The position numbers were made by a program, and so were the translations under genes. From Naegleria gruberi (lineage: Eukaryota): a DNA stretch of 64,000 bases. This document shows positions 38,001 through 58,421 of the stretch, piece by piece (position 1 is the stretch's first letter; every line of letters starts with the position of its first letter). Under the pieces are notes generated by a model. The model saw only the letters and a program-made list of their open reading frames with translations. It was not told where the DNA came from and made no database searches. Where the stretch lies: the NCBI GenBank assembly GCA_000004985.1, contig GG738895.1; one strand, given 5' to 3'.

Positions 38001-40797
38001 TGAAAAGGTGTTAAGAGAAAGTGAGAATGGTGTAGTATTATTTGTTGTGCCAAATAAGGCATTAGTCAATCAAGTTTATTGTGAAATCCAATCAAGATTG
38101 AAAAAGAATCAAAATAATATGGCCACAGCTGGTATGGCTACAGCAAATACAAGATTGGATGTATTTAATTCTCAATTACTTGTCATAGTACCTGCAATGT
38201 TGGAGATTTATTTAATGAGCTCAGCTCCAAAGGTTCTTGAGTGGAGAAAGAGAATTAAATATCTTGTCCTTGATGAAATACATTGTATAACAAGTGATGA
38301 TCAAGGTGAATACTATGAACATTGTATTCAATTATTAGATTGTCCTGTCATTGGATTATCTGCTACTTTGGGTAATTCTGAAAAATTTGCAAAATGGATG
38401 ACTCATGGATCGAGAGATAATGTACATTTAATTTATGAACCTGATTATAAAAGGTTCAATCCATTAGAATATCATAACTTTAATGGAACAGAAATTTCTC
38501 ATTCACATCCATGTGAATTATTTAATCCAAAATATCTAAATGAAAAGGAAATACAAAAATGTAGAATGATGACAATAGATGAATGTTTCCAATTAAAGAG
38601 AATGCTATTGGAAATAGATCAATCCGATGAGATGAAGGAAATAATCGAAACTCATGTTGGCTATCATTTATTGAATCGCAATAACCAATTGTCATGCATA
38701 ACTTGGAATGATCACATTCAGTACAAGCTTGGCTATAAACAATTAATGATCTACCTAGTGAATCATCCAACCAAACACAAAGTACTTTCCACTGTAGTGA
38801 GCTCATTACAAATGTCATACGCAGACGAAAATATTAAGCCAGTTGAATTTGTAGATGATATGATACACTTGATCATCAAAATGAAGAAGGAAAAGATGCT
38901 TCCCTCCATAGTATTCATTTTAGATAGGAGGATGATTGATCTTATGGTTAGAACCTTACTGCATAGAAATGTCTATTTATATGAAAATGAGGAAGATTGT
39001 CCGAGAGCTGATATTTTGAGACTAAATATTGATGATAATGATAGCGAAAAGACTATCAATAGGTATTATATTGATGCACTATCTCATGGAATTGGAGCTC
39101 ACTATGCTGGTATGAACGATGGCTATTTAATTGAAATTGAAAGACTCTTTAGAGAGAAGAAATTACCACTCATATTTACAACCTCCACTCTAGCTCTTGG
39201 TATTCATCTTCCTTGTAAAACAGTAGTTATGGCTGGAAGTTCCATTTATTTAACCAATTCACTTTTTAAACAATGTTGTGGAAGAGTTGGAAGAAGAGGA
39301 ATAGATCAGAAAGGTAAAGTTATTCTATATGGACTGAGTAAACCAAGAATTAGAAGATATTTACTGTCAGAACCTATTTCCATCAATGGAACAGTTGGCT
39401 TAAAACCAAGCTTCATTCTTAAAATGTTTACATCTCTTAATCAAGCTGAACAGGATTTAAAATCTGGTGAAAAAAATCCATTCCAAGATGCATTCCAAAG
39501 AGTATTAGAAAAACCATTATTTTCCATTAATGAAAATACAATGATTGCAACACAATCACAAATGTCATACTTTATCAGATTCCATACAGAATTTTTGAGA
39601 CAAGCAATGTTCCTTAATAAGAAATGTAATCCTCTTCAATTGAGTGGATTAATTGGACATCTCCATTATAGAGAACCTTTCAACTTTTTAATGGCACACT
39701 TTTTACAAACTCGAATTTTTGAAATGTTGGATATTAACAAGATTAGGGAACACGAATTTGATAAGATTATTTTAACCATTTTTACTTTGCTCTTTGCCAG
39801 ATATAGAGTTGGCAAACACATGTCGCAAAATACGTTGGACACTGACTTTACGAAAAACATGTCCAATATTTATAGGAAAATGATTGAGAAAAATGTTGAA
39901 TTCAATAATGAAACATTGGGAATTTATTCCAATTATGCTATTGCCTATTGTTTGAGTGAAAAATTGAAAGATGAAACCCTTCCACTTTCTGATTATTCAA
40001 CAATTATTTTAAAGGAATGTGAAAGTGAGTGCAAACTATTTACCGAATTGAAAAAGAGTCGATCTACAAATACTCACTCAATTTCTTCATTTTCTGCATT
40101 AAGTGGAAATGAAGATGGTAAATATCTAACAGAAGATCATTTCTTTTCCACTCTAAAGCATACAATTTCAATTAATAAGGCACACGTACCATTTACTAGT
40201 GCTTTGTCTGATGAAGACCATCCAATAAGTTGTTTCCTTTTGGATTACTATGGACATGGATCTTTGAAGATTCTCACAGAAGATCATCAATTTATCAACA
40301 TTGGTGCAAGCTCTAAACTTATCAGTGAAGCCATTAGAGATTTGAAGAAATTGAGAGCTAGTTTGATTAATGAAGAAATATTTTCATTTTCAATTTCAGA
40401 TTATGAACGAAAATTGGATAGTGGAGTTGTTTCTGAATGGTTAGTTAAGGAGTGTCCTTGGTTGAAGAATAATCCCAATTTAGAATTGATAACATTTGAA
40501 AAACTCTATAATTGGTTAACAAAAAACGTGCTAGAGATAGAGGTATCTGCACTGTTTCCTATTAGGGGAAATGGATTGAAGATGTTGAAAAGAAAAATTG
40601 AAAATAGATTTGCTCATCCAATTATTCAAAGTCTTGATAGAATCTTATCTAAACTTGAGGAAGGTGAAAGAAGAGAAAGACAACAATCTTTTAATGAAAG
40701 AAAAGAAATCAAACAAAAGAAACAATCATTGCGGAATGATTTGGATTCAGTTGAGAGTTTTAAGGGTATCAAGCATGCAAAATCAAATTTCATGTGA
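35053..40797 (+). CDS. Ski2-like DExH-box superfamily-2 helicase with a ~900-aa N-terminal extension of unknown function
   Basis: 1914-aa single exon. Motif I VPTSNGKTFIV, motif II LVLDEIHCI (DEIH), motif III LSATLGN, Ski2-type IGAHYAGM, motif VI QCCGRVGRRGID. The N-terminal ~900 aa and C-terminal ~450 aa have no recognisable domain. Confidence 0.75.
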   Translation: MSTQTTKPSIVLFIRTSNSSKKQSIICDHIRKMTFGKPHEGNALLVLQVGSEPILLDDLVIKLKGWKIGQHVSQEQQPPHFVHTNKLRDCLQYSKGSTLKNSSCTFNALDVNACNQLEKGQHYAIRLSDVKLAFLPPSLDFDQVQVEIFKKDQLVGAISHSKQEAIDSHIEMSAKSLVSKWKTKSRYEHLDLIDGVGAADFIVINVDALISMALKKSNGLDWKEHGGQWLHLVWLCEKMLSLLKSRNVNFDLICFKNSIIMDGNFSFFVARMIVFNHLKKYCTFPCYLFDSLLSKEWEEYIRQANPSAVISSDCNYTNAYLNLMSNISYIVTNVEEGAKSVLGDVYSSAYLSWVRSVEPELDNLSKFLQNSSISSTLKIREFHQLENVMKQVNELQLHSNFTRLEVFLSSFLLFIENCKQDKVMESLFYGISMIYSVVLLDYLPIEARHCNLKETINELTQFMQELYKYCSMVLFEIDNFQDISCDLLDCRLIHWLILNFKPNNPFTLNQWIEIICELSPQPVKDSLNKIVLLLKERVSFDFDSDFEFSSIVSPYIRNYAYDYSNSKNRCTVLEVKNNFINTFCNLQSSSVIQEDSFKKPLFYDIYHFHSTRLITDTAEHLERNKYSTVDKTREKLNGMVELFKKVNKCKEIATEQVPKDLKFTEHVNEKNIMKIVSENYEKSQKPLNAIKEIIRKQESLVKKKEDEEETFSISELVSISLTIQENIQQFIPIMGKYSPKNNTTMVFGKKLYIQLLDSFKYQLPKSRKPIESKLLQRTVEGPTSKISLNELEEQKAMYRLYHVNSWIRFIYSYLMELNSLCLYFTEKEIAKELENLATSARMFGFCQTAQLIENEISPKKISKHEEDIIDPNYLFLYHFEKTAPTTPPLERFTKKKHNQILNELVQEKVLLIEKLKKDSSTKSREEISHEIKKVNVNIKLRESLTFTPDDWQNQLISYVNRDESVLVSVPTSNGKTFIVFYLIEKVLRESENGVVLFVVPNKALVNQVYCEIQSRLKKNQNNMATAGMATANTRLDVFNSQLLVIVPAMLEIYLMSSAPKVLEWRKRIKYLVLDEIHCITSDDQGEYYEHCIQLLDCPVIGLSATLGNSEKFAKWMTHGSRDNVHLIYEPDYKRFNPLEYHNFNGTEISHSHPCELFNPKYLNEKEIQKCRMMTIDECFQLKRMLLEIDQSDEMKEIIETHVGYHLLNRNNQLSCITWNDHIQYKLGYKQLMIYLVNHPTKHKVLSTVVSSLQMSYADENIKPVEFVDDMIHLIIKMKKEKMLPSIVFILDRRMIDLMVRTLLHRNVYLYENEEDCPRADILRLNIDDNDSEKTINRYYIDALSHGIGAHYAGMNDGYLIEIERLFREKKLPLIFTTSTLALGIHLPCKTVVMAGSSIYLTNSLFKQCCGRVGRRGIDQKGKVILYGLSKPRIRRYLLSEPISINGTVGLKPSFILKMFTSLNQAEQDLKSGEKNPFQDAFQRVLEKPLFSINENTMIATQSQMSYFIRFHTEFLRQAMFLNKKCNPLQLSGLIGHLHYREPFNFLMAHFLQTRIFEMLDINKIREHEFDKIILTIFTLLFARYRVGKHMSQNTLDTDFTKNMSNIYRKMIEKNVEFNNETLGIYSNYAIAYCLSEKLKDETLPLSDYSTIILKECESECKLFTELKKSRSTNTHSISSFSALSGNEDGKYLTEDHFFSTLKHTISINKAHVPFTSALSDEDHPISCFLLDYYGHGSLKILTEDHQFINIGASSKLISEAIRDLKKLRASLINEEIFSFSISDYERKLDSGVVSEWLVKECPWLKNNPNLELITFEKLYNWLTKNVLEIEVSALFPIRGNGLKMLKRKIENRFAHPIIQSLDRILSKLEEGERRERQQSFNERKEIKQKKQSLRNDLDSVESFKGIKHAKSNFM

Positions 40798-45066: not shown

Positions 45067-47172
45067 ATGCTCAATACTAGTAGTAATTATTTAAAAACCA
45101 AGCACTTTGCTCATCTCTTTGAAAATCTCTCCTTTGCCAATACATTTTGCAAGGAAACTCTTGCTGATCCCTTAGGGCAATTAAACAAGACTCGACAAGT
45201 GCTGGGCTCCATGTATTCATATGTGGATTCTACACCATTGGAGAAGGCTAAATATGCCTTTGATCCTAGTAGTGGACGTTTACTTCCCACTCGACAACAA
45301 GTTTCCGAAGACTTTGATGATCAAGATGAAGAGAGAAATAATAGAAGTAATATATTGTCATCTTCATCATCATCATCTGTGGGTATATTGAAATCTGCAA
45401 CATCTGATAAGGGAGTAACATCTGATTTTATTAATTTAATTGATTATAACAGGTATTCTCGTTTTGAATTTGTGATGGCTTCGAATAGTGTTGCAAAGGA
45501 ATGTTTGAATGGAGACTTGTTGTCGAGTGAAAGTGGTGATGAGAGAGGAGTGAATGGAGTGAATGACTTGATTACTGTGGAACATTTGATGAAACAACAG
45601 GAGAAGGAACATGATTTGGATAATTTTGTAAATATACTATCTGGATATGATCTTGTAAATAGTACTAAATATTATGCACATTGTTATGGTGGTTTTCAGT
45701 TTGGAAATTGGGCTGGTCAATTGGGTGATGGAAGAGCTATTAGTATGGGACAAGTTGAAACACCATTCACAGATATGGATTCGTCTGGTTTCGAGTTTAA
45801 CAATAGTAGAAATTCCTACAATTATATCAAACCAAAGAGATTGTGGGAGTTGCAATTCAAGGGAGCTGGTCACACACCATTCTCTAGACATGCAGATGGA
45901 AGAGCAGTATTGAGATCTTCTATTAGAGAATTTTTGGGTAGTGAATTTATGGACAGTTTGGGAATTGCTACAACGAGAGCATTCTCACTTGTGAGAAGTA
46001 AGGAAAAGGCAGTCCTCAGAGATGAATTCTATGATAACAATCCAAAATATGAATATGGAGCTATTGTATTGAGAGTTGCTCCAACTTTTGTCAGATTTGG
46101 ATCCTTTGATATTTTCAATTACAGATATCATCCTATCAATGAAAAGGAAAAGGCATTGGAAGAGAAGAAGAATATCGAAGTATTGGCTCGTTATGTCATT
46201 AAGAATCACTTCCCTCATTTGTGGATTAATGGTGATCTCACTTTGGAATTGAAGGAAAAGTTTTCAAAGGAGATTGTTAGAAGAACTGCCAAATTATGTG
46301 CTGATTGGATGTCTGTTGGCTTTGTTCACGGAGTTCTCAATACGGATAACATGAGTATTCTAGGATTGACTATTGATTATGGTCCATTTGGATTTGTTGA
46401 TTATTTTTCTGAAGATTTCGTACCAAATAACAGTGATAGTGACGGTAGATATCGTTACAAGAATCAACCAGCTATTGTCTTTTGGAATTTACAAAAGTTG
46501 ATGAGAGCTTTCACACCAACACTCCTTCCAGAGGAATACTTTGCCAAAGTTTTGAATGTTTATGCTCCACACTTTGAACATTACTACTTGATGAATTTTA
46601 GAAAGAAACTTGGTTTGATTTCTTCCAGTACAATTATTGACACTTCTGAAGATGTTACCAACTTTGACATGTTTGATGGCGATTCTGAGAATTTAAGAAA
46701 TGAAGATTGGGAGCTTATTGAGGGATTTTTGGCTTGGATGAATGAGAACAGAGCTGATTTTACCAACTTTTTCAGATTATTGTCAAATGTAAAGAAGGGA
46801 GCAGAAGTTTCTCAAGAGTTACTCGATAATTTACTTCAAACAAGAATGCACGCTGATCACACTCCATCTGAAACAACTGTATCAGAGCTCAAGAATTGGC
46901 TCTCCATTTATACCAAGAGACTTGAATCTGTTCCACTCTCCGATGAGGAAAGAAAGACTCAAATGGACAAGACTAATCCAAGATACATCTTGAGAAATTA
47001 CATTGCCCAAAAGGTAATCAAATCAGCTGAAGAATTTGACTATGGTCCACTCTATGAATATTACAATGTTCTGAGAAATCCATATGATAATCATTCTACA
47101 GAGTTTGAAGAAAAGTTTGGTGGTAATGCACCACTTTCTTCTCGTTGTTTGAAATTGAGCTGTAGTTCTTAA
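45067..47172 (+). CDS. selO: SelO / UPF0061-family protein adenylyltransferase homologue (Cys form, C-terminal ...CSS)
   Basis: YAHCYGGFQFGNWAGQLGDGRAISMGQ and downstream conserved SelO blocks. The C-terminus ...LKLSCSS* has Cys (TGT) where selenoprotein O carries Sec. ~150-aa N-terminal extension. Confidence 0.8.
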   Translation: MLNTSSNYLKTKHFAHLFENLSFANTFCKETLADPLGQLNKTRQVLGSMYSYVDSTPLEKAKYAFDPSSGRLLPTRQQVSEDFDDQDEERNNRSNILSSSSSSSVGILKSATSDKGVTSDFINLIDYNRYSRFEFVMASNSVAKECLNGDLLSSESGDERGVNGVNDLITVEHLMKQQEKEHDLDNFVNILSGYDLVNSTKYYAHCYGGFQFGNWAGQLGDGRAISMGQVETPFTDMDSSGFEFNNSRNSYNYIKPKRLWELQFKGAGHTPFSRHADGRAVLRSSIREFLGSEFMDSLGIATTRAFSLVRSKEKAVLRDEFYDNNPKYEYGAIVLRVAPTFVRFGSFDIFNYRYHPINEKEKALEEKKNIEVLARYVIKNHFPHLWINGDLTLELKEKFSKEIVRRTAKLCADWMSVGFVHGVLNTDNMSILGLTIDYGPFGFVDYFSEDFVPNNSDSDGRYRYKNQPAIVFWNLQKLMRAFTPTLLPEEYFAKVLNVYAPHFEHYYLMNFRKKLGLISSSTIIDTSEDVTNFDMFDGDSENLRNEDWELIEGFLAWMNENRADFTNFFRLLSNVKKGAEVSQELLDNLLQTRMHADHTPSETTVSELKNWLSIYTKRLESVPLSDEERKTQMDKTNPRYILRNYIAQKVIKSAEEFDYGPLYEYYNVLRNPYDNHSTEFEEKFGGNAPLSSRCLKLSCSS

Positions 47173-47180
47173 TAAACTTT

Positions 47181-48743
47181 TTATTTACATTTCTCTAGAA
47201 TTTTATCGAATATTTGTGAGAGCTTTGGTACCAGATCTTCTGTGTCCAATGAATTTGTTATAATGATTTCGCAAACTCTATTTCCTAAATCCACTTCCTT
47301 GAATTTGTTAGTAATTGAGGTCAAGTAAAAATCCGCATCTAGGTTGTTATTATCATTTCCTATGGAAAGTAACGAGTTCAAAATTGTAACCTTATTTGGT
47401 GAGTCTAACTTTTTCTTGAATCTATCAACATTAGTTAATACGAGAAACACTGGTTGATTCTTGATCGATTCATTCGTAATCCAATCTTTAAATGTTGTCA
47501 AATCCTCAATAAATCTATTAGTAGTAATATCTTCCCAACAAACTAGGTCAAACTCTGAAAGAGATGCCACATAAACAAGTGCTTGGCAGCATTTCATTAC
47601 TGCAGACCATTTTTTCCTTTCGGTACGAACGCCTGCTAAGTCCATCAGAGTTATTGACTTGTCCTTGTAGGTATAAATTCGAGAAATGACTCCAGTTGTT
47701 CGTTGTTGGAATACAATGTAGTCTCTCTCGGTAGCTCTGTATTCTGAACTTGTTAATCGTTCATATTCTGAAATATAATACTCAATACAATTTCCAATCG
47801 AATAATTCAAATTCTTATAGTCGTGAATGTTATCCAAAATTTCTTTAACTCTTGAATCATGTAAAATATCATACCATGTTGCAGCATCTATCACCTTGTC
47901 ACCAATTAATTTTTCAGAAGCGTGCTTTGAGATGAAATTTTTCATTTTCTGACAAGTTGCCCAATCGAGAGCAACATCACCATTTGATTCCTGTTCTTTG
48001 AGTATTCCTTCAAAGAGAGCTCTCAATACTTCCACCAAATTTTGTTGTATGAATGTGGCTGAAAGATTAACAGCCTTCTCAGCATATTTTCCTCCAATAA
48101 TCTTTTCGCATTGTTTGAATAGAGTACTCTTTCCACTTCCTTCACATCCAAACAAGGCAATCTTGAGGTCGGAATCTTTTGGCACTTCATTGGCCTTCCT
48201 TCCAGAGAGCCATTGCAACAAGTTACTTCTCGGAGATGATGGTGGAGACATTGTTGGAGGAGTTTTTGATTTCTTATTGTTGAATGGAATATTTCTTGGC
48301 GAAGTACTTCCAGAAGATGACGATGAGCCTTCATCCATTATACCACTATTCGGAACAAGCAAATAATTAGCACTCTTAATCCCCTCGTCTGATGATGACG
48401 AAGAGGATGCTGGAGAAGCAGAGGAGTGACCCATCAATCGATTCCCAGCCGAAGTTGTCCTTCCAAAACTGACGAGACTTTCATTATTATTACTACTACT
48501 GGAAGCAGCGTTGTTGTTTGTATTTTTTCGTTGCTGTAAATTTCCAAGCGAGGGAGAAGTTGGAATGGCGGGAGAAGTGTTGGTAGAGCTTGGAATGAGA
48601 AATTCTTGGACATCTTGTTTGGTGGTTCGACTCTTGAATGATGGAAGGGAAAATTTACGTTTAGTTTTGGACATTTTTTTGCATTGAGAGTGATGAACTA
48701 TTTTTTTGAAAGGGAACTTTAAATGCAATCTGTCAAAAGTCAT
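47181..48743 (-). CDS. Divergent heterotrimeric G-protein alpha-like subunit with a long Ser-rich N-terminal extension
   Basis: P-loop KIALFGCEGSGKSTLFKQ, switch II/G3 DLAGVRTERKKW (cf. DVGGQRSERKKW) and a G4-like LVLTNVDRF. About 190 aa of S/N-rich low complexity sits upstream. Confidence 0.55.
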   Translation of the reverse strand: MTFDRLHLKFPFKKIVHHSQCKKMSKTKRKFSLPSFKSRTTKQDVQEFLIPSSTNTSPAIPTSPSLGNLQQRKNTNNNAASSSSNNNESLVSFGRTTSAGNRLMGHSSASPASSSSSSDEGIKSANYLLVPNSGIMDEGSSSSSGSTSPRNIPFNNKKSKTPPTMSPPSSPRSNLLQWLSGRKANEVPKDSDLKIALFGCEGSGKSTLFKQCEKIIGGKYAEKAVNLSATFIQQNLVEVLRALFEGILKEQESNGDVALDWATCQKMKNFISKHASEKLIGDKVIDAATWYDILHDSRVKEILDNIHDYKNLNYSIGNCIEYYISEYERLTSSEYRATERDYIVFQQRTTGVISRIYTYKDKSITLMDLAGVRTERKKWSAVMKCCQALVYVASLSEFDLVCWEDITTNRFIEDLTTFKDWITNESIKNQPVFLVLTNVDRFKKKLDSPNKVTILNSLLSIGNDNNNLDADFYLTSITNKFKEVDLGNRVCEIIITNSLDTEDLVPKLSQIFDKILEKCK

Positions 48744-49163
48744 CGCTTTGAATGTGCTCTTGGACTTTGAAATAATTGAGGCGAGAAGTTATTCGCCATT
48801 TATTATTTTCGTCTTCATTAAAAGTAATCCAACCAACATACAAACATCAATTAAAAATTGAAATATGAAAGAGTGAATGACTAAAATATCATTTTTAAAG
48901 TCAGTCAATGGAGCACACTAATTTTGGTCAGCAACTTAGTTAAGAAGGCTAGAAACTAGCTTAGCTTGTCATCAGCAATTTTCATTGATAAAATTCAAAT
49001 ACAAATTGGCGCCAAATATTAAAAAAAAAATTGATATTTTGGTTTTCTTTAAAGAAAATTTAATACATGTAACCAATTATGATTCCAATAAACGTTGTGA
49101 TTTGATTACGTGGATAGCGAGATCAAAAAATTGTCATCACACAAGATCACCACAACATTGCAC

Positions 49164-50762
49164 ATGATGGAATCAACAAAACCATCATCCGAGATGAAAA
49201 TGTTCATGGAAAAGGTTGGTCTGGATGTTTTTCAATTCATCCTTTCCTTCTTGCCTCCTGTTCCGTATTTATTTCAACTTCAGAGAGTGAGCAAACATTA
49301 TTCACAATTGTGTCAATCATGTATGGAAGAAGATTGTAGTGAATTGTATTGGGATGAAGAAGCTGTCGCTCAAATGAATGATCAGATGAAAAAATCGTCA
49401 TCAAACAATATTCCGAATACTTTGTCGAAATTATTGAAACAAGTTAGACCAGCACATAAAGATTGGGTCTTGTTCTTTAGGGATATCCTACATAAATTCA
49501 AAAAGTTGGATCGTCTGGTTTTGAAGAATATGGAATTTTCGAATGTGATCATGTATTTAATTTTTGTAGATTGGAAAGGAGATTTGAAAGAATTGAAACT
49601 CATTGAATGTGATTTCAAGGTACAAATACCATGTAGTTTTTCAAGCATGTCTCAAGGTCAAGTTGTAACACTGAGAGAAATATATTTTCAAGTGGAGAGC
49701 TTTTTGGATTGTACTTTAGACTTGGGTGACCATACAGGATTCATGACAGATATTCAGAAGTCAACAAATATTGGAAAAATTGAAAAGATCAAAATTGTAT
49801 CCAAATCGAACGGTTATAATAACGATGCTAAATATCCAAATAATGGATATGGGTTGATTCCATTTGTGAAATGTTTCCCCTCACTCAAGAATATATTCTG
49901 CTTAGTTTTCAGAAACAAATCACCTGTATGGGAATCGGTTCTTTTAATGTTTCCAGATATTGTTTTTGAACCCTTACCTAGAGAATTAACCAATAATGAA
50001 ACAAACTTGGGCGAATTTTATATTGATTACCTGTGTAAGGAATTCAATTTGAGGAAAAACAGACTAGAATTGATTCAACACGAATTTACATCTTCCAGAA
50101 CTAGAGAGAATATTCATAGTTTCTTTAGTACAATTATTGATTTCTTGGAGGTGCATACACCATTTGGTCTTGATAGTTTGATAAAGGATGTTCGTGGTAA
50201 TAATATCATTCAATTGGCTATCCTATTTACAAACTATGAAACAGTTCGATTCTTTGTCAAATACCTTACAGCACTTGAGGATAAGGATCATGCTGCTAAA
50301 GAACTCTCCCAACTCTTCTCTGCTAATAACCGACTCGATGGAAGAAATGCTCTATTTAAATGTATTTCCTCATCCTCACTTACTTATTTCGATCTGCTTT
50401 TAGAGTATGGAGTTTCATTCAATTTTCCAGATAGTGATGGAAATACAATACTTCACAGCTTGTGTATGTTTGGACAATTAGCTAAATTACAAACCTTGTG
50501 GGATAATACTTTGGGTAAAAAGCAATTGAAAGAAAAAATGTACTATTTGAATTTTAATACAAAGAATAAGAATGGTGAAACACCACTCTATCTATGTAAA
50601 AAGAATAGAATGAATAATATGGCAAACCAATTACAAACCCAATTTGAACATTATGGCATTGATTTGAGTGTTACTGATCCAGTGCCACCAGTAGCAAGCA
50701 GCAACCCAACACCAATAAGAAATGACACACCAAGCTCAGCCACGAAATGTGATATTTTGTAG
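49164..50762 (+). CDS. F-box-like N-terminus with C-terminal ankyrin repeats
   Basis: First ATG is at 49164 (track start 49110 is GTG). VFQFILSFLPPVPYLFQLQRVSKHYSQLC is F-box-like. C-terminal ankyrin-type repeats (DGNTILHSLCMFGQLAKLQTLW; NGETPLYLCKKNRMNNMANQL). Confidence 0.45.
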   Translation: MMESTKPSSEMKMFMEKVGLDVFQFILSFLPPVPYLFQLQRVSKHYSQLCQSCMEEDCSELYWDEEAVAQMNDQMKKSSSNNIPNTLSKLLKQVRPAHKDWVLFFRDILHKFKKLDRLVLKNMEFSNVIMYLIFVDWKGDLKELKLIECDFKVQIPCSFSSMSQGQVVTLREIYFQVESFLDCTLDLGDHTGFMTDIQKSTNIGKIEKIKIVSKSNGYNNDAKYPNNGYGLIPFVKCFPSLKNIFCLVFRNKSPVWESVLLMFPDIVFEPLPRELTNNETNLGEFYIDYLCKEFNLRKNRLELIQHEFTSSRTRENIHSFFSTIIDFLEVHTPFGLDSLIKDVRGNNIIQLAILFTNYETVRFFVKYLTALEDKDHAAKELSQLFSANNRLDGRNALFKCISSSSLTYFDLLLEYGVSFNFPDSDGNTILHSLCMFGQLAKLQTLWDNTLGKKQLKEKMYYLNFNTKNKNGETPLYLCKKNRMNNMANQLQTQFEHYGIDLSVTDPVPPVASSNPTPIRNDTPSSATKCDIL

Positions 50763-50798: not shown

Positions 50799-51878
50799 TT
50801 AATTCGTGAACGAAAATGTTACATCATGAAAACAATTAGACATTAATCCACATTGCTCATTTAAGGAATGCTTGAAATGCTTTCTAATTTTCCTATTCTT
50901 ATGACAGGTATCCAAACTAAAATCACGTAGAAACCTCACAATCTCCTTATGACCATAACGTTGAGCAGTTTCAACAGGTAACTCATCCAGACACTTTTGA
51001 TATTGATTGGCTCCATTTTTCATTAGAAACTTGACCGTACTCAAACAACCAATGATACAAGCAGTGGTTAATGGCATGAATTTTCGTTTCGTTCTCTTTG
51101 ATCCAACATAATTAATTACTTCTCTGATGAGCTTTTGACCACCTCCAACATGTCCATATAGTGCAATACCATAATTCTTTACATCTTTTCTAATGAACTC
51201 TTTGATTTGAGACAGATTTTTTGAATTGACAAGAACTACCAGTTTGTTAGCCAAGTCCAAAATCATGAGCATCCTCATACTCATTCGTATAGAGTAATTG
51301 TGCTTGTGTAACATTTCACAAAATGATAGGTGAAGTGTTGGTTCAATTGGAGCCAAACCCACTTCACCTTCATGTGGTACTACTGGTAGGTGTTGTTGCT
51401 GTTGACCTTCACTAGAAATAATTGCATCACCACTCTTTTCATTCACAAGCCCATCACCATCACCACATTGAGAACCATCATTCAAACATTCATTCAATAC
51501 TATTGTTGTACATGTACCATTATTACTTGTATTCGCCTGTGAAGAAGCATTCAATACTGTAATATCGGATGATGGCAATGATGACAATTGTGGACTAGTA
51601 CTAATAACAGAATTTGATATTGTTGGTTCCTGATGTAAAAGTGCAGAATTTGTTGTTGGTTGTTGGACTATTGAATTAGAGGATGAAATGGAAGAGGTAC
51701 TATAATTATTTTGTATCAAAACATTTGATGATGAACTATACGAAGGAGTAGAAGAATAATCATCAGACGCCTTGTTGGTATACAGAGATGAATTCATCAT
51801 CGATGCTGTTGATGGAGATGACTGAGAAGAATTGAATGAAGAGGAGTTATTTGACTGTGTCATGACTAGTGACAGCAT
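50799..51878 (-). CDS. Ser/Thr/Asn-rich protein with C-terminal ankyrin repeats
   Basis: Low-complexity N-terminal half. C-terminal half with ankyrin-like GHVGGGQKLIREVINYVGSK...TACIIGCLSTVKFLMKNGANQYQ...ETAQRYGHKEIVRFL. Confidence 0.45.
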   Translation of the reverse strand: MLSLVMTQSNNSSSFNSSQSSPSTASMMNSSLYTNKASDDYSSTPSYSSSSNVLIQNNYSTSSISSSNSIVQQPTTNSALLHQEPTISNSVISTSPQLSSLPSSDITVLNASSQANTSNNGTCTTIVLNECLNDGSQCGDGDGLVNEKSGDAIISSEGQQQQHLPVVPHEGEVGLAPIEPTLHLSFCEMLHKHNYSIRMSMRMLMILDLANKLVVLVNSKNLSQIKEFIRKDVKNYGIALYGHVGGGQKLIREVINYVGSKRTKRKFMPLTTACIIGCLSTVKFLMKNGANQYQKCLDELPVETAQRYGHKEIVRFLRDFSLDTCHKNRKIRKHFKHSLNEQCGLMSNCFHDVTFSFTN

Positions 51879-52507: not shown

Positions 52508-55084
52508 ATGCCAACTAAAATTCAACCATTCAATTTGCAACCAACAAGTTCAGAAACCAAGATTCGTTCCACAGCACAACTCTCCACACAAACATCGTGC
52601 TTTGAATTTACAAAGGAAGGAGGAGGAATTGCATCTTCTGATTATGATCCAGATCATGATTTGGAAGAACCACTCAATGGAGTGGAAATGACACAAACTA
52701 CATGTGCTCAATGTATTTCTATTCGGTTATTTATTATCATTCTGATGACTTCCTTGTTATTGGTGTGCTCTATTTTAATTTGGCTCACTGGATTTGTCAT
52801 GTCCCAGCAAGCTCTTAATTCCATGTCGAGTGAATTAATGGCCACCTATGGACAATCTATCATTCGCTTCATGGATGGTCAAGTAAGACCTTACATTGCA
52901 GCCACACACTCAGTAGCCGACGATTACAACATTGGACTTGTTGGAAGAGCTCCACCATTGTCCTATCTCTACAAAAAGTACTCGACCTTCAAACCATACG
53001 GTATTGGTTTGGTATTTGATGATGAGTTGAATACTTTCAATACTTTTGGTGTTCCACCGAATGAAGTAGCAGCTTACTACCAAACTCCAAAGGGACAACC
53101 AATTTTGAATACATGGAGTGTGAATACTACCAGCCCCAATGTCACAATCAATGGATTGTACAAGATTACCAGCAATTATCTCACCACAAAGCAAAGTTAT
53201 TGGATTACCGCCTTTGGTTTATTTGAAAAACATCCAGAAATGGAGGGCGTCTTTGGCTCTTCAATTTATTACGTGCCAGGGGGTGGTTACACCATGTATT
53301 ATTGTGCAAAATTGTATGATCCTTCTATTTATTTCAATACTGGTAATAAGGTGGTTGTTGGTGTGGCCAAGACCAATTTGGCTGTAAATATCATTCAGAG
53401 ATTCCTCTCAAAAGTAACCTTATTCGGTACAGGTTACTTACTTGTTGCAGAGGATAATGATTTAGTCATTGGAGGTAATATCAATACCACTGCTTTGGAT
53501 AAGGTCTCCCGTGTATCCATGTTTGATTTGGAAGATCGTGATTCTGGCAAGTTGATGCAAAAGATTTCGATCACATACGGAGATTTGAACATGGCCCCAG
53601 CTCACTTTGAAATGAACAGTGTGGGAGTTGATTATTTCATATCGAGATTTGAATTTCAATTATTGAACTTGCAATGGCATGTGTTCATGGTTCTGAAAAG
53701 GGATGAAGTTCAAGAAGCACTCAATATAAGTTCTGGTGTTTCGGTAGCTGTCACATTTATCATTATAATATTTGGTGTGGCAATCAGTTTTGCTATTGGT
53801 GTCATTATCACAAGACCATTCAAAGTTCTGGAACGTGAATTTGGAAAAATCAAAACAATGGACCTTGAACATGTAATGATTTCACAAAGCAAACTCAAGG
53901 AAGTAGACATTATATATGGATATCTCTTTGAAATGACAGCATGGCTCAATGAAATTAAGAGTTTCATCCCAGAGAGCGTCTTTCTCCAGCTAAAGAATGC
54001 CAAGCATGAGGAAACCAAACGAGTTCAACTTTTTGAAAAGAAGCAAATCAGTGTAACTGAGCTGCAATCCAAGAATAGTAGAAATTTCTCTGCTATTGGT
54101 TCACACTTTTCTGGTTTCTCTAGAAATTGTCCAGATCCAGGTGCATCCAACTTGTTCAAGATGGGTCTCAATGTGAAAAAGACTGCAGTGATTAGAATTA
54201 CACTTCCTGGGTTTTCCAAATCCTATTCGGCAGCTATCATTTCACACGTCTTTTCAAAGATTGTTTCTGGTCTATCTACCATTTCTAAGGCTATCCAAGC
54301 CGATTTTTCAATTAGCTCTGTTGAGGAATTCCAAATCATTGTGAGTGCTGATGAATCACCAAACAAAAAGACTATTAACATTCAAAGTTTGGATGCCGCA
54401 TTGAAATTCTCTAAATTGATTCAAACCATCAATGATACTTCCCAACTCAATATCAAGTGCTGTATTGGTGTGAGTGTTGGTAAGGCCAATGTTGGTAATT
54501 TGGGTTGTGCCAGTTTTAGATCATTTAGTGTGGTTGGTGGTATTTTAGAAAATGCCAAGCGCCTCAGTAAGCTGGCTAACTTGCTTAATTGTAAGATTTT
54601 GACAGACCCTGGATGTTTGGACTCTCAAACAAGACAATACTTTGTTTCCAGACCAGTCGAAAGATTACTTATGGAACCACCAATTTATGAAAACTGTCAA
54701 GCAACAGTTTCTGGATGCATTTCAACAGTATTCGAAGTTGAAAAGGAAAGATCAGTAGAAAGTGATGAATGGATGTATGAATTGCAACAACACAAGGCCA
54801 ACGAAAAGTTCTCTGATTTTTGCAAGTACTTTGTCTTTGATCAGGATTATTCACAATTAGGAAATTCATTACTGGTCGAAACTTTAAAGCAAACTGAACA
54901 ACAACTCAAAGATGAAGTGGAAATCCAATTGTCAGGTGATGTGATTGCTCTTCGGTTATTGAGAAGTATTCAAACATTTATTGGAAGATCTCACGATTTA
55001 GAAAAGCACCACGTGAAACTTTCAGATGCCTTGTTGAATTATTATACTAAACTTGATACTTCCATGTTAGAAGTATTTCCATAA
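52508..55084 (+). CDS. Receptor-type cyclase-homology protein (TM - ~310-aa extracytoplasmic domain - TM - juxtamembrane - degenerate class III cyclase domain); likely pseudo-cyclase
   Basis: Two TM helices (LFIIILMTSLLLVCSILIWLTGFVM; VSVAVTFIIIIFGVAISFAIGVIIT). The cyclase-like domain VIRITLPGFSK...IIVSADE...CCIGVSVGKANVGNLG...SVVGGILENAKRLS aligns to the neighbouring active-type cyclase. The first metal-binding Asp is Leu, while the Asn/Arg pair is retained. Confidence 0.65.
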   Translation: MPTKIQPFNLQPTSSETKIRSTAQLSTQTSCFEFTKEGGGIASSDYDPDHDLEEPLNGVEMTQTTCAQCISIRLFIIILMTSLLLVCSILIWLTGFVMSQQALNSMSSELMATYGQSIIRFMDGQVRPYIAATHSVADDYNIGLVGRAPPLSYLYKKYSTFKPYGIGLVFDDELNTFNTFGVPPNEVAAYYQTPKGQPILNTWSVNTTSPNVTINGLYKITSNYLTTKQSYWITAFGLFEKHPEMEGVFGSSIYYVPGGGYTMYYCAKLYDPSIYFNTGNKVVVGVAKTNLAVNIIQRFLSKVTLFGTGYLLVAEDNDLVIGGNINTTALDKVSRVSMFDLEDRDSGKLMQKISITYGDLNMAPAHFEMNSVGVDYFISRFEFQLLNLQWHVFMVLKRDEVQEALNISSGVSVAVTFIIIIFGVAISFAIGVIITRPFKVLEREFGKIKTMDLEHVMISQSKLKEVDIIYGYLFEMTAWLNEIKSFIPESVFLQLKNAKHEETKRVQLFEKKQISVTELQSKNSRNFSAIGSHFSGFSRNCPDPGASNLFKMGLNVKKTAVIRITLPGFSKSYSAAIISHVFSKIVSGLSTISKAIQADFSISSVEEFQIIVSADESPNKKTINIQSLDAALKFSKLIQTINDTSQLNIKCCIGVSVGKANVGNLGCASFRSFSVVGGILENAKRLSKLANLLNCKILTDPGCLDSQTRQYFVSRPVERLLMEPPIYENCQATVSGCISTVFEVEKERSVESDEWMYELQQHKANEKFSDFCKYFVFDQDYSQLGNSLLVETLKQTEQQLKDEVEIQLSGDVIALRLLRSIQTFIGRSHDLEKHHVKLSDALLNYYTKLDTSMLEVFP

Positions 55085-55841: not shown

Positions 55842-58421
55842 ATGAACAACAATTCCATCATTCAAAGTGATGATGTGGTGATGGAAAAACAACTCGATAA
55901 TAACAACAAAAATCTTCGGAATGAACAACAACAACAAGTAATAATTTCTCCTTCCGATAAAGATGATTGTGTTGTTGCTTCTTCTTCTTCTGTATCATCT
56001 GATAATAATACAACAACAATAGTTATTGGAAAATTGGAGGGAACACCTTGTGTGAATAATAGTAATAATAATAGTGGAAATATTGTGGTTGATCCGAATA
56101 GATTGTCACCTCATACATCATCACATCTCTCGATAGAATCGAGTCTTGAACAAAATATGGATGATTATATTGCGGATGATGATGGAAATGCATCGAATAA
56201 TAACAAAACGAAAAAACATCATCCAGTCGAATTTTTGACAAAACGAATGAAGAGTTTTTCAAATTCTGATGTTTTGAGCTTTTTCAAAAAACCATCACCG
56301 AGAAGTGCTTCACCAAATAATGTGCATGAAACTAATAGTTCGGAACTCTTATCTTCTCCCAGTGAAACAGAAAAGATTTCAACAACTCAACTATCAAAAC
56401 AGGAAAATACAATGTCAATTTCCTCTTCTTCTGTATCCTATCCTACTACCACCAAATTGATTCCACCAAAAGTGAAAAGAGAAAAATCAACAGGAAATAT
56501 CTACACTTCTTCATCTGATGATGAAATAACATCAACAATTCAACACCAGCTTCAGGAAAAGAAGAGAAAGAGTAGACAAATTCCACCACTACCTCTCAAC
56601 GAGACTAAGATAAAGAGAATTGCATTGAAAACCATTTACAACATGATGGTTCTTCAACCGAGTATTACAGATAGGGTTCTTCCTCTAATTTTGATAGATG
56701 TCAGATCTTCTGAGAAGGACTACATTTCAAAAGTTAGCCCAACCATTGGTCCCCAACACAATAGTCACAATAGTTTTTCTGTATCAGAAATGAGTAGCAT
56801 CCTTTCTTCCCAAATTGAAAGTGAACTTATATTCGATCAAATGAGGCCTCGATCAAGAAGTTCAGCTACTCCACCCACTCAACCAATAATTTCACCAGGT
56901 ACTCCCCTCGGTACAAAGGTGCCACTCCTCAATATTAGCTCTATCTCTCCAGACCAAAAATTTAAAGGTATTATGGGTAGCCCTAAATCAGGTTACAACA
57001 CTCCAGTGGCCAGTCCACTAATGAGTCCAAGAACTTCTTCACTCGGAATTTCTCAACATGTCCAATGGTCAATTCATTTCTATTTACCAGATCATATCAT
57101 TGATCATATACCAATTGATGATTTGAACAAGGAAAATGTAGCTAGTATAATTCACATGATTGAAACATCTAACACATGCATTGAGAAGGATTTGTACAAA
57201 GCCAGATTTGCTTGGAGGAAAATGTCAAATGTTGTTGTAATGGCTGGTAGCTCGAGAGATGAACACAGAGCCAAATGGCTCCTTAGAGTTTTACAATTGG
57301 AGGGGAAGTCCTATAATCTATACTCACTCCCACATGGTCTTAATTTCACTCATTTCGAAGCTAAATATCCCTTCTCCATTACTTCTTTCGATTTTGTTGA
57401 ATTTCAATTACCAACCCATATTTTCAAGAATATTTATTTGGCAAGTTATAGAGTTTTAACACAGGAACGAGGAATAGAAGTGCTCATAGCAAAGAGGTTG
57501 AACATTAAGAGGGTTTTGAATTGTGCAAAGGAATGTAAATGTGTAATACCCAACAAATTTCTCTCAGAGGACTCTCCAACAAAGCCAGTCCAAAATAGCT
57601 CTCAAACTCTCTCAAGATCAGAGAGCTTTTCCAAGACTGGAATTTCCACCTCTCAAACCCCAAAGATTTCCTATCTCCATCTTCTTCTTGATGATTTTGA
57701 TCCAAAGCACTGTTACTTTACCGCAGAACAAATGAAGGAAAGTGTCCTCTTCATTAATCAATCATTGAAAAACAATGAAAACATCTTGATTCACTGCCAA
57801 GAAGGTAGATCTAGATCAGTAACTATCATTTGCCTCTACATGATGATTAATATTGGATGGAAATTGTCATACTCATTGGAATTTATGAGATCTCAAAAGC
57901 CCACCATTTCTGTCCATCCAACCTTCCTTCTTGAACTTCAAGCCATTGAGGATTACATTAGTGACAAGATTGAAAAAATCAAAGGAAACAGCACTATTTC
58001 CAGTGATTCTCTCGACAACATGGAAGGAATGATAAAAGTTGATAGTATTCTCACCATAACAGACGATCCTGAACCTCCTGAAAGATACCTCCTCAAATTC
58101 ACACCACTGTACGAATATTCCTCCACCGATGATCTTTCCTCGGTCAGCACCAATGCATCCCCAAGAGTTTCACCTCGTCTCATCAGCAATAGAAAATTAA
58201 AGAAAAGCTCGGTAGACAAATTGAATGTCTCTTTAATTTTCAATAGGGCCAAAAGTGCCACACTATCCTTACCTGATTCTCCACTCCTTCTAGACCCCTC
58301 TACCTTATATCTTGATGATTCAGTATTGAGCACATTCTTGGATGAAATTGGACACAATGTCATTCGCCCATTCATTGAAAATTTATATTCATCCAATGAC
58401 CAATTACAGCAATTACGATAA
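55842..58421 (+). CDS. Dual-specificity protein phosphatase domain protein with long low-complexity N-terminus
   Basis: HCQEGRSRSVTIICLYMM matches the DSP catalytic signature HCxxGxxRS. Preceded by ~600 aa of S/N-rich sequence. Confidence 0.65.
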   Translation: MNNNSIIQSDDVVMEKQLDNNNKNLRNEQQQQVIISPSDKDDCVVASSSSVSSDNNTTTIVIGKLEGTPCVNNSNNNSGNIVVDPNRLSPHTSSHLSIESSLEQNMDDYIADDDGNASNNNKTKKHHPVEFLTKRMKSFSNSDVLSFFKKPSPRSASPNNVHETNSSELLSSPSETEKISTTQLSKQENTMSISSSSVSYPTTTKLIPPKVKREKSTGNIYTSSSDDEITSTIQHQLQEKKRKSRQIPPLPLNETKIKRIALKTIYNMMVLQPSITDRVLPLILIDVRSSEKDYISKVSPTIGPQHNSHNSFSVSEMSSILSSQIESELIFDQMRPRSRSSATPPTQPIISPGTPLGTKVPLLNISSISPDQKFKGIMGSPKSGYNTPVASPLMSPRTSSLGISQHVQWSIHFYLPDHIIDHIPIDDLNKENVASIIHMIETSNTCIEKDLYKARFAWRKMSNVVVMAGSSRDEHRAKWLLRVLQLEGKSYNLYSLPHGLNFTHFEAKYPFSITSFDFVEFQLPTHIFKNIYLASYRVLTQERGIEVLIAKRLNIKRVLNCAKECKCVIPNKFLSEDSPTKPVQNSSQTLSRSESFSKTGISTSQTPKISYLHLLLDDFDPKHCYFTAEQMKESVLFINQSLKNNENILIHCQEGRSRSVTIICLYMMINIGWKLSYSLEFMRSQKPTISVHPTFLLELQAIEDYISDKIEKIKGNSTISSDSLDNMEGMIKVDSILTITDDPEPPERYLLKFTPLYEYSSTDDLSSVSTNASPRVSPRLISNRKLKKSSVDKLNVSLIFNRAKSATLSLPDSPLLLDPSTLYLDDSVLSTFLDEIGHNVIRPFIENLYSSNDQLQQLR

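What the first reader, a model, noticed from the sequence alone, without database searches (positions are those of the whole stretch)
52508..55084. Receptor-type pseudo-cyclase resembling a C2-like half-site partner
The domain order is TM, ~310-aa extracytoplasmic domain, TM, juxtamembrane helix, cyclase-homology domain. In the cyclase domain the first metal-binding Asp is replaced (VIRITLPGFSK versus FSDMVGFTK), but the Asn/Arg pair is retained (ENAKR). This is the pattern of the catalytically passive C2-like half of heterodimeric class III cyclases. Alone it cannot bind both metals. It may be a regulatory receptor that heterodimerises with an active cyclase such as the one 18 kb upstream, or a cyclase-derived pure sensor.
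Basis: partly seen in the sequence, partly recalled or inferred. Interest (0 to 1): 0.6.

Follow-up and report, generated by a model that had tools for sequence, protein, structure and literature searches.

The report
Dead receptor cyclase, not C2-like
This Naegleria gruberi gene encodes a membrane receptor whose adenylate/guanylate-cyclase-like output domain has lost nearly all catalytic residues, and it belongs to a large, undescribed family of such "dead cyclase" receptors in amoeboflagellates and euglenids that must signal without making cAMP or cGMP.

Summary

The first metal-binding Asp is lost (T565), as claimed. The "retained Asn/Arg pair" is not. The canonical Asn position is E681, with N682 one residue out of register. 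R685 sits at the Arg position but is K or T in the closest homologues. The substrate-specifying positions are I602 and S674. So both half-sites are degenerate, and the domain is not C2-like.

In 96 family representatives (Naegleria, Willaertia, euglenids, metagenomes), only one has Asp at the first metal site. The former catalytic positions rank among the more variable columns. Relatives with the same ectodomain and an intact class IIIb catalytic set exist (e.g. Willaertia KAL9647366.1).

Best reading: a catalytically dead receptor derived from a dCache class IIIb cyclase, signalling non-catalytically. The output mechanism is inferred, not shown.

The parts
52508..55084 (+). Whole single-exon gene: 858 codons plus stop
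   Evidence: ORF list. 100% identity and coverage to an NCBI N. gruberi predicted protein.
52508..52714 (+). N-terminal cytoplasmic tail, aa 1-69, disordered and poorly conserved
   Evidence: pLDDT <50 for aa 1-68. Mean identity to the query is 13% across the family.
52715..52801 (+). TM1, about aa 70-98
   Evidence: Kyte-Doolittle peak 2.8 with window centres at aa 74-94. Model helix starts at aa 72.
52802..53728 (+). Extracytoplasmic dCache_1 (double PDC) sensor domain, about aa 99-407
53729..53815 (+). TM2, about aa 408-436
   Evidence: Kyte-Doolittle peak 2.85 with window centres at aa 412-430. Continuous model helix 398-449.
53816..53962 (+). HAMP-like helix-loop-helix, aa 437-485, with near-invariant P437, L441, S461, E465 and L480
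   Evidence: Model shows a helix to aa 449, a loop at 450-463 and a helix at 464-484. Conservation is. hhalign to 7 HAMP-cyclase proteins is in register (P437 on the HAMP Pro, E465 on the HAMP Glu) but weak, E 0.0076, probability 5%. No Pfam HAMP hit in any of 37 members.
53963..54028 (+). Conserved 'SFIPESVFLQL' helix, aa 486-507 (P488 invariant). It corresponds to the LLxNILPxxIAxRLK segment that precedes canonical cyclase domains.
   Evidence: P488 is invariant in 37 sequences. Compare NILPDSVAFKLK in the upstream cyclase and LLLNILPGPIAERLK in HAMP-cyclases. Model helix 489-507.
54029..54148 (+). Ser-rich disordered linker, aa 508-547. This insertion is specific to the pseudo-cyclase family.
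   Evidence: pLDDT <50 for aa 501-550. Identity is 12-17%. The spacer between FIPExV and LFKxGL has median length 60 aa (range 37-181) and is 18% Ser across 44 family members. The catalytically intact relatives have only 31-34 aa from VP to the first metal Asp.
54149..54751 (+). Degenerate class III cyclase-homology domain (pseudo-CHD), aa 548-748
54200..54202 (+). T565 at the position of the first metal-binding Asp
   Evidence: Alignment. This column has Asp in 1 of 96 family members and is mostly R/K/T/H.
54311..54325 (+). I602 at the substrate-specifying Lys/Glu position, through E606 at the second metal-binding Asp position
   Evidence: Alignment. Position 606 is D/E in 49 of 96 members. 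Position 602 is mostly I/V/S and is Lys in only 2 of 96.
54494..54520 (+). G663-N664-L-G666...R671: the beta4-beta5 'arm' motif inherited from class IIIb cyclases, and the most conserved part of the domain
   Evidence: G663 and G666 are each conserved in 95 of 96 members, N664 in 83 of 96, and R/K671 in 95 of 96. They rank at the 0-3rd percentile of variability. The same motif, vGNIGSEKRTKYGVVG, occurs in Cya2 2w01.
54527..54562 (+). S674 at the second substrate-specifying position; E681 at the canonical Asn position; N682 at +1; R685 at the canonical Arg position, on helix alpha4
   Evidence: Alignments. Model helix 678-692. Variability is at the 47th, 83rd, 73rd and 96th percentile respectively.
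54764..54784 (+). DEWMYEL motif, aa 753-759, the signature of the pseudo-cyclase family
   Evidence: D, E, W, Y and E are invariant in a 27-sequence alignment. It is absent from the catalytically intact relatives P0247 and P0191.
54764..55081 (+). C-terminal alpha-helical tail, aa 753-858, possibly TPR-like
   Evidence: Model helices 755-774, 786-806 and 812-833, pLDDT 85-94. The PDB profile search finds only designed helical repeats. One relative has a weak Fis1_TPR_C hit.

Best explanation
The gene encodes a two-pass membrane receptor that descends from a bacterial-type dCache / HAMP / class IIIb adenylate cyclase. Its cyclase domain has become a pseudoenzyme. The first metal Asp, both substrate-specifying residues and the transition-state Asn are gone. 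Neither a homodimer nor a heterodimer with an intact cyclase can therefore assemble a complete active site that uses this subunit's residues.

It is one paralogue of a large family with at least 6 genes in N. gruberi. The family also occurs in N. fowleri, N. lovaniensis, Willaertia, the euglenids Entosiphon and Chasmostoma, and uncultured eukaryote-like metagenome contigs. Three derived traits mark the family: (i) loss of the catalytic residues; (ii) a 40-180-aa Ser-rich disordered spacer between the transducer helix and the cyclase fold; (iii) an invariant DEW[ML]YE motif leading into a helical tail.

Proposed mechanism (inferred). A small-molecule ligand binds the dCache ectodomain of a homodimer. 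The signal passes through TM2 and the HAMP-like bundle. The conserved pseudo-CHD dimer plus the DEWMYEL/helical tail then acts as a non-catalytic output: a ligand-controlled docking or regulatory surface for another protein, possibly tuned by phosphorylation of the Ser-rich spacer.

Shown here: the architecture, the homology, the loss of catalytic residues, the conservation pattern and the family distribution. Inferred: dimerisation, ligand control, and the nature of the output.
For: Architecture and folds. CHD homology: (98.6%, E 7.7e-16).

Residue mapping: D1 on T565, substrate Lys on I602, D2 on E606, substrate Asp/Thr on S674, Asn on E681, Arg on R685.

Family-wide degeneracy: Asp at the first metal site in 1 of 96 members, Asn at the catalytic Asn column in 10 of 96, Arg at the catalytic Arg column in 5 of 96. 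Former catalytic columns rank at the 47-96th percentile of variability. The structural arm G-N-x-G...R and G677 rank at the 0-3rd.

Purifying selection on the dead domain: identity to the query is 51% in the pseudo-CHD against 48% in the ectodomain for close homologues, and 33% against 27% across 37 members. ORFs are intact across four heterolobosean genomes.

Descent from an active receptor cyclase: P0247 (Willaertia KAL9647366.1) and P0191 share the ectodomain/TM/HAMP region with the family. They carry D,K,D,R,T,N,R,K, a complete class IIIb set. They lack both the long spacer and DEWMYEL.

Derived family traits: spacer; DEWMYEL.

A precedent for a non-catalytic cyclase fold appears in the fold search: PDB 6yii, 'Class III adenylyl cyclase-like ATP-binding protein'.
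Against: No experiment supports any of this. Inactivity is inferred from residue loss alone.

The acidic residue at the second metal site (E606, D/E in about half the family) and the arm Arg/Lys (R671, 95 of 96) are retained. Some metal or nucleotide binding therefore cannot be excluded.

The disordered spacer would seem to break the rigid helix-to-CHD coupling used by real receptor cyclases, so it is unclear how ligand binding would reach the pseudo-CHD.

No partner protein, ligand or function for DEWMYEL is known. The HAMP assignment rests on topology and two hallmark residues only (probability 5%; no Pfam hit).

No dimer model could be made.
Confidence: 0.6

Rival explanations
1. First reader's model. 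The domain is a C2-like passive half. It heterodimerises with a catalytically competent or C1-like cyclase, such as the one at 29341-34551, and contributes Asn/Arg and substrate-binding residues to a single shared active site.
For: The first metal Asp is lost. R685 aligns with the canonical Arg. An Asn (N682) lies next to the canonical Asn position and is invariant in the 7 closest homologues. The family profile scores sAC C2 better than sAC C1, 33.6 against 13.3 bits.
Confidence: 0.07
2. Dominant-negative or modulatory subunit. The protein forms mixed dimers with the still-active dCache class IIIb receptor-cyclase paralogues, which share its ectodomain, TM and HAMP-like region. Both composite sites are poisoned, so cAMP output is tuned by the ratio of paralogues or by a second ligand.
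For: Active-looking relatives with a homologous ectodomain/TM/HAMP region exist in the same lineage (P0247 in Willaertia). N. gruberi has dCache_1+Guanylate_cyc proteins D2VLR9 and D2V3A4 (PMC4822843 supplement). The arm motif GNxG...R..F/Y...G that forms the CHD dimer contact is the best-conserved part of the pseudo-CHD and is shared with class IIIb enzymes.
Against: Pseudo-family members far outnumber the active relatives seen here (96 against 2 among the top 150 representatives). The family has its own invariant DEWMYEL motif and tail that the active relatives lack, which suggests an independent output. There is no evidence of mixed dimers.
Confidence: 0.17
3. Nucleotide sensor. The dead cyclase fold still binds ATP, GTP or a cyclic nucleotide without turnover and uses occupancy as an allosteric input. 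This would resemble the ATP-binding cyclase-like domain of PDB 6yii, or degenerate GGDEF domains that act as c-di-GMP receptors.
Against: The positions that contact the base, ribose and alpha-phosphate in real cyclases are variable in the family. That argues against one conserved ligand pocket. R671 and the GNxG motif may be conserved for structural or dimer reasons.
Confidence: 0.12
4. Unorthodox but real enzyme. The domain still catalyses a nucleotidyl cyclase or related reaction using E606/E607 and other residues.
For: The E606-E607 acidic pair (D-E in most close homologues) sits on the beta2-beta3 hairpin where the second metal Asp lies.
Against: All characterised class III cyclases need both metal-binding Asp residues (established knowledge). 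The first is T565 here and is R/K/T/H across the family. The acidic pair is not conserved in the wider family. The Lys of the beta7-beta8 KGK loop is also absent.
Confidence: 0.04

Closest known systems
dCache / HAMP / class IIIb receptor adenylate cyclases. Examples: bacterial Rv2435c-type enzymes; Willaertia magna KAL9647366.1 (P0247); N. gruberi D2VLR9 and D2V3A4 as listed in PMC4822843.
   Same: Same topology (TM, dCache_1, TM, HAMP-like, LP-helix, CHD, helical tail). The ectodomain/TM/HAMP region is homologous. The CHD shares the class IIIb arm motif GNxG..R..Y/F...G. The best structural matches are class IIIb enzymes: CyaB, Cya2 and CyaC.
   Different: Those proteins keep D,K,D,T,N,R. 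This one has T,I,E,S,E,R. This family adds a 40-180-aa Ser-rich spacer before the CHD and an invariant DEWMYEL motif after it.
C2-type passive halves of pseudo-heterodimeric cyclases (tmAC C2, sAC/ADCY10 C2)
   Same: Cyclase fold without the first metal-binding Asp. The family profile's best PDB sequence hit is sAC residues 283-418, E 3.6e-12.
Non-catalytic cyclase-fold or GGDEF-fold domains used as binding modules. Examples: PDB 6yii 'Class III adenylyl cyclase-like ATP-binding protein' of P. aeruginosa; degenerate GGDEF receptors such as LapD (3pjx).
   Different: There is no detectable specific sequence relationship. Those are bacterial cytoplasmic or inner-membrane proteins with known ligands. 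This is a eukaryotic dCache receptor with unknown ligand and partner.
Receptor pseudokinases and the kinase-homology domain of receptor guanylate cyclases (analogy only)
   Same: A cell-surface receptor whose enzyme-derived intracellular domain is conserved but catalytically dead and acts as a regulator or scaffold (own knowledge; reviews PMC8141879 and PMC13259870 were listed).
   Different: Unrelated fold and lineage. Analogy of logic, not homology.

Membership tests
Class III nucleotidyl cyclase catalytic domain (Pfam PF00211 fold) | Sequence and structural homology to the CHD fold | tested here: met
Class III nucleotidyl cyclase (as an enzyme) | First metal-binding Asp at the end of beta1 | tested here: not met
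   T565. There is no Asp at aa 548-598. Asp occurs in 1 of 96 family members.
Class III nucleotidyl cyclase (as an enzyme) | Second metal-binding Asp on the beta2-beta3 hairpin | tested here: inconclusive
   E606, a conservative change. It is Asp in the 5 closest homologues and D/E in 49 of 96 members.
Class III nucleotidyl cyclase (as an enzyme) | Substrate-specifying pair (Lys/Glu, and Asp/Thr/Cys) | tested here: not met
   I602 and S674. The Lys column has Lys in only 2 of 96 family members.
Class III nucleotidyl cyclase (as an enzyme) | Transition-state Asn and Arg on alpha4 (N-x-x-x-R) | tested here: not met
   Asn position is E681 (N682 is at +1). Arg position is R685 in this protein, but K/T in close homologues and R in 5 of 96.
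C2-like passive half of a heterodimeric cyclase | Loss of metal-binding Asp(s) | tested here: met
   T565.
C2-like passive half of a heterodimeric cyclase | Retention and conservation of the substrate Lys plus Asn/Arg that complete the partner's site | tested here: not met
   I602, S674, E681. The Asn and Arg columns rank at the 83rd and 96th percentile of variability.
C2-like passive half of a heterodimeric cyclase | Existence of a complementary C1-like partner (metal Asps kept, Asn/Arg lost) | tested here: inconclusive
   None among 96 family CHDs, 108 canonical CHDs (all DKDDNR) or the upstream cyclase. A full N. gruberi CHD census could not be run.
dCache_1 extracytoplasmic sensor (PF02743) | Profile match and double-PDC fold located between two TM helices | tested here: met
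dCache_1AA amino-acid sensors (AA_motif Y-x4-R-x-W-Y...Y...D; PMC8915833) | Carboxylate-clamping Arg in the YxxxxRxWY motif | tested here: not met
   By register, Y224-LTTK-Q229-S-Y231-W232. The Arg position is Gln, which is Q in 15 and R in 6 of 37 family members. The alignment was made by eye and carries low weight.
HAMP domain (PF00672) | Profile match; helix-connector-helix after TM2 with hallmark Pro and Glu | tested here: inconclusive
   No Pfam HAMP hit in 37 members. hhalign is in register but weak, E 0.0076, probability 5%. The model topology fits and P437 and E465 are near-invariant.
Class IIIb subclass | Lys/Thr substrate pair and GNxGS..R..YT..G arm | tested here: inconclusive
   The arm motif is kept: GNLG...R671.F673...G677. 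Intact relatives P0247 and P0191 have K...T. The best hits are class IIIb enzymes. The query itself has lost the K/T pair.

The most novel reading that the evidence does not exclude
The DEWMYEL-tailed proteins are a previously unrecognised class of 'receptor pseudo-cyclases', spread across Discoba (Heterolobosea and Euglenida) and expanded to many paralogues per genome. A bacterial-type dCache sensor would drive a non-catalytic output built from a dead class IIIb cyclase dimer plus a new conserved tail. That makes it a cyclase-world counterpart of receptor pseudokinases, with its own, still unknown, downstream partner.
Probability: 0.45. Interest if true: 0.65.

Novelty: new variant of a known kind. 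Interest (0 to 1): 0.5.

Why it matters
Naegleria genomes are said to encode 80-100+ adenylate/guanylate cyclases (PMC9928731 gives at least 81), and this count is used to argue for very rich cyclic-nucleotide sensing.

This work shows that a sizeable, conserved set of 'Guanylate cyclase domain-containing' or unannotated proteins cannot be cyclases. At least 6 are in N. gruberi, and there are 96 representatives at the 50% identity level among the top hits. Counts of cyclases in these organisms, including the pathogen N. fowleri, are therefore inflated. A separate receptor system with an unknown output has been overlooked.

It also multiplies the number of Cache-type extracellular sensors in Naegleria. 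An earlier census reported 'a single protein' in its text, with two entries found in its supplement (PMC4822843).

If the non-catalytic output is confirmed, the invariant DEWMYEL motif gives a direct handle for finding the partner, through mutagenesis, pull-down or proximity labelling.

Tried and rejected
1. Pfam on the single sequence gives only a sub-threshold dCache_1 hit and no cyclase hit. Single-sequence annotation fails here.

2. Word-indexed homologue searches, with the single sequence and then with the alignment, returned only the same 6 proteins. The exhaustive HMMER search was needed to see the family.

3. The first AF2 run, with a 6-sequence alignment, was unusable (pLDDT 46). The 37-sequence alignment gave pLDDT 81. 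Coordinates are not exposed, so side-chain geometry (the N682 orientation, any docking of the DEWMYEL helix) could not be examined. No multimer prediction is available.

4. The afdb50 fold library was not available.

6. HAMP confirmation by profile gave only a weak in-register hhalign match.

7. The C-terminal tail profile against PDB found only designed helical repeats, a compositional match.

8. Synteny with the N. lovaniensis homologue P0002 showed no shared neighbours, so orthology is unresolved.

A codon pattern for DEWMYEL[EQ] across 185,579 prokaryotic genomes gave one hit, in an unrelated actinobacterial ORF without a cyclase domain. About one chance match was expected by my own estimate. 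This is a narrow test, consistent with a eukaryote-only family.

10. Literature searches for pseudo-cyclases or Naegleria cyclase degeneracy found no prior description.
Full report
WHAT IS THERE

The window is Naegleria gruberi DNA. The ORF at 52508-55084 (+) encodes 858 aa. It is identical over its full length to an NCBI 'predicted protein [Naegleria gruberi]' that carries no precomputed Pfam domain. The gene is a single exon. The window starts with 72 tandem ACCCAA repeats at 1-430, apparently a chromosome end, so the gene lies about 52 kb from a telomere-like array.

ARCHITECTURE

Hydropathy gives two membrane segments, with window centres at aa 74-94 and 412-430.

A first AlphaFold2 run with 6 homologues was unusable (mean pLDDT 46). 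A second run with a 37-sequence family alignment reached mean pLDDT 81.3, and all folded domains were mostly above 85-90. The model gives:
- a disordered N-terminus (aa 1-68);
- TM1 running into a long helix (72-141);
- a two-module alpha/beta ectodomain (about 145-397);
- TM2 continuing as a helix to aa 449, a loop (450-463), then helices 464-484 and 489-507;
- a disordered stretch (501-550);
- an alpha/beta domain (552-747);
- a helical tail (755-843).

The ectodomain is a dCache_1 domain.
- The query alone scores 16.1 bits, below the cut-off of 45.
- 13 of 37 family members hit Pfam dCache_1, best E 4.7e-12.
- The family profile finds dCache chemoreceptor structures (6mni 3.8e-6, 6iop 3.8e-5).

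By register, the amino-acid-sensor motif YxxxxRxWY (PMC8915833) reads Y224-LTTK-Q229-S-Y231-W232. The carboxylate-clamping Arg is therefore Gln. The ligand is probably not a standard amino acid. This point rests on a by-eye alignment and carries low weight.

The juxtamembrane part has HAMP topology. It has a near-invariant Pro (P437) at the start of the first helix and a near-invariant Glu (E465) at the start of the second. Profile evidence is weak: hhalign is in register but E is 0.0076 and probability 5%, and there is no Pfam HAMP hit in 37 members.

It is followed by 'SFIPESVFLQL' (P488 invariant). This matches the 'NILPDSVAFKLK' / 'LLLNILPGPIAERLK' segment that directly precedes real cyclase domains.

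THE CYCLASE-HOMOLOGY DOMAIN IS REAL BUT VERY DIVERGENT

- Pfam gives no Guanylate_cyc hit for the query at E<=1.
- The five closest homologues score 18.8-22.1 bits, or give no hit, against a cut-off of 21.9.
- A 6-sequence profile reaches OaPAC at E 6.4e-5.
- An exhaustive HMMER search of 1.84 billion representatives found 1792 hits at E<=1e-3 and 70 at E<=1e-30.
- From the top 150 I aligned 96 CHD regions. Their profile matches a profile of 108 canonical CHDs with hhalign probability 98.6%, E 7.7e-16.
- The 37-sequence profile hits sAC (3.6e-12), Cya2 (1e-9) and CyaB (4.9e-9) in the PDB.

CATALYTIC RESIDUES

The hhalign mapping agrees with the HMMER alignments to OaPAC, sAC and Cya2 and with hmmalign to the canonical model.

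| Canonical role | Residue here |
|---|---|
| First metal Asp | T565 |
| Substrate Lys/Glu | I602 |
| Second metal Asp | E606 |
| Second substrate position (Asp/Thr) | S674 |
| Transition-state Asn | E681 |
| Transition-state Arg | R685 |

The metal Asp is replaced, and VIRITLPGFSK aligns with FSDMVGFTK exactly as proposed.

The second claim is not. In 'G677-G-I-L-E-N-A-K-R' the canonical Asn is G+4, which is E681. N682 is one residue late, so the Asn-to-Arg spacing is i,i+3 rather than i,i+4. The bridging family member P0192 still has 'GSVVNEA', with Asn at G+4. This shows there is no indel in that stretch.

R685 is K, K, K, T and K in the five closest homologues.

THE WHOLE FAMILY IS DEGENERATE ON BOTH HALF-SITES

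Among the 96 representatives:
- the first-metal column has Asp once and is mostly R/K/T/H;
- the Asn column has Asn in 10;
- the Arg column has Arg in 5;
- the Lys column is mostly I/V/S, with Lys in only 2;
- the second-metal column is D/E in 49.

Ranked by entropy among 183 CHD columns, the six former catalytic positions fall between the 47th and 96th percentile of variability (Asn column 83rd, Arg column 96th). The beta4-beta5 arm G663-N664-x-G666...R/K671 and G677 fall at the 0-3rd percentile.

That arm motif is the ordinary class IIIb motif ('vGNIGSEKRTKYGVVG' in Cya2), so it is inherited, not new.

The pseudo-CHD is nevertheless as conserved as the ectodomain. Identity to the query is 51% against 48% in close homologues and 33% against 27% across 37 members. 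The fold is under purifying selection while the chemistry is not.

ORIGIN

Two relatives share the ectodomain/TM/HAMP region with the family. They are P0247 (Willaertia magna KAL9647366.1) and P0191 (a metagenome contig). They have strong Pfam cyclase hits (56 and 87.6 bits). They carry D, K, D, R, T, N, R, K, a full class IIIb catalytic set. They have only 31-34 aa between the 'VP' helix and the first metal Asp, and they have no DEWMYEL motif.

The pseudo-family differs in three derived ways:
1. The catalytic residues are lost.
2. A Ser-rich (18% Ser) disordered spacer, median 60 aa and range 37-181 aa, separates FIPExV from the conserved LFKxGL that precedes beta1.
3. An invariant D-E-W-[ML]-Y-E motif follows about 10 residues after the last CHD strand and leads into a helical tail. 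The tail's only PDB profile matches are designed helical repeats.

DISTRIBUTION

Named members come from:
- N. gruberi: this gene, NAEGRDRAFT_80465, 65131, 68321, 65007 and 65846;
- N. fowleri, N. lovaniensis and Willaertia magna;
- the euglenids Entosiphon sulcatum and Chasmostoma nieuportense;
- an MMETSP transcript and a EukProt entry labelled 'Hpha';
- JGI metagenome contigs auto-named 'class 3 adenylate cyclase'.

A codon-pattern scan for DEWMYEL[EQ] in 185,579 prokaryotic genomes gave a single hit, in an unrelated ORF.

UniProt names several members 'Guanylate cyclase domain-containing protein'. I found no paper describing them as inactive. [quoted passage not shown] Two entries, D2VLR9 and D2V3A4, were found in its supplement. 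The 858-aa protein was not among the Naegleria entries found in the stored, truncated supplement text.

THE HETERODIMER IDEA

In a head-to-tail CHD dimer each active site takes the two metal Asps from one subunit and Lys, Asp/Thr, Asn and Arg from the other. This is established knowledge for class III cyclases (Tesmer et al. 1997; Linder and Schultz 2003; own knowledge).

Because this protein lacks both sets, pairing it with an intact cyclase would leave both composite sites defective. It could inhibit a partner but could not complete one.

The cyclase 18 kb upstream (29341-34551: TPR_TmcB, PAS and a CHD scoring 177 bits) has all six residues, of the K/D type. These two are the only CHD genes in the window. 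Six unrelated ORFs of 200 aa or more lie between them, including a DEAD-box helicase, SelO and a G-alpha.

MOST LIKELY MECHANISM (inferred)

A homodimeric dCache receptor senses an extracellular small molecule. It relays through TM2 and the HAMP-like bundle. It then uses the conserved pseudo-CHD dimer and DEWMYEL tail as a non-catalytic output surface, with the Ser-rich spacer as a possible phosphoregulatory tether.

Alternatives that remain open:
- modulatory mixed dimers with the intact dCache class IIIb paralogues;

Residual catalysis and the C2-like partner model are unlikely.

VERDICT

The specific 'C2-like' interpretation is not supported. What is there is a member of a large, conserved and apparently undescribed family of receptor pseudo-cyclases. 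That is a new variant of a known kind, of moderate interest. Its main immediate consequences are for how cyclase and Cache-receptor repertoires of Naegleria and relatives are counted. It also yields a clean, testable motif (DEWMYEL).

Noticed in passing
window 1-430 (and 1-2000): 72 tandem copies of ACCCAA at 99% match. GC is 27% and GC skew is -0.50 over the first 2 kb. This looks like a telomere or chromosome end, so the whole window is subtelomeric and the pseudo-cyclase gene lies about 52 kb from the end.
   Followed up: partly
window 29341-34551 (+): A 1736-aa protein with TPR_TmcB, PAS and a cyclase domain scoring 177 bits. It carries the full D,K,D,D,N,R catalytic set and is predicted to be a self-sufficient homodimeric adenylate cyclase of the K/D type.
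   Followed up: yes
window 47181-48743 (-), 45067-47172 (+), 35053-40797 (+): A G-protein alpha subunit (184 bits), a SelO protein adenylyltransferase (363 bits) and a 1914-aa DEAD/Helicase_C protein lie between the two cyclase-domain genes. There is no evidence of a functional link.
   Followed up: no
window 16724-17698 (-) and 17730-18956 (-): An ORF with HisKA + HATPase_c starts with TTG. It sits directly downstream, on the same strand, of a 408-aa ORF without Pfam hits. This is possibly one histidine-kinase gene split by an intron or a frameshift.
   Followed up: no
window 55842-58421 (+); 49110-50762 (+); 50799-51878 (-): The immediate neighbours of the gene are a Ser/Asn-rich dual-specificity phosphatase (DSPc, 68 bits) downstream and two ankyrin-repeat proteins upstream. 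The homologue in N. lovaniensis (L001) has entirely different neighbours: an Arf-like GTPase, tripeptidyl peptidase II and G-gamma.
   Followed up: partly
window 5893-7665 (+); 10006-11091 (-): An antistasin-repeat protein and a protein with a fibrinogen C-terminal domain fragment. Both are animal-like extracellular modules in an amoeboflagellate.
   Followed up: no
P0167 (N. gruberi NAEGRDRAFT_65131) and P0222 (NAEGRDRAFT_65007), related proteins: Some family members swap or extend modules. P0167 replaces the dCache ectodomain with a long EGF/teneurin-like Cys-rich region in front of the same FIPE helix, pseudo-CHD and DEWLYE tail. P0222 carries a roughly 500-aa extra C-terminal extension. 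The pseudo-CHD + DEW tail therefore behaves as a portable cassette.
   Followed up: partly
L002 2589-2612 (Streptosporangiaceae MAG): This is the only prokaryotic match to the DEWMYEL[EQ] codon pattern. It lies near the N-terminus of an unrelated 323-aa ORF with no cyclase domain and looks like a chance match.
   Followed up: yes
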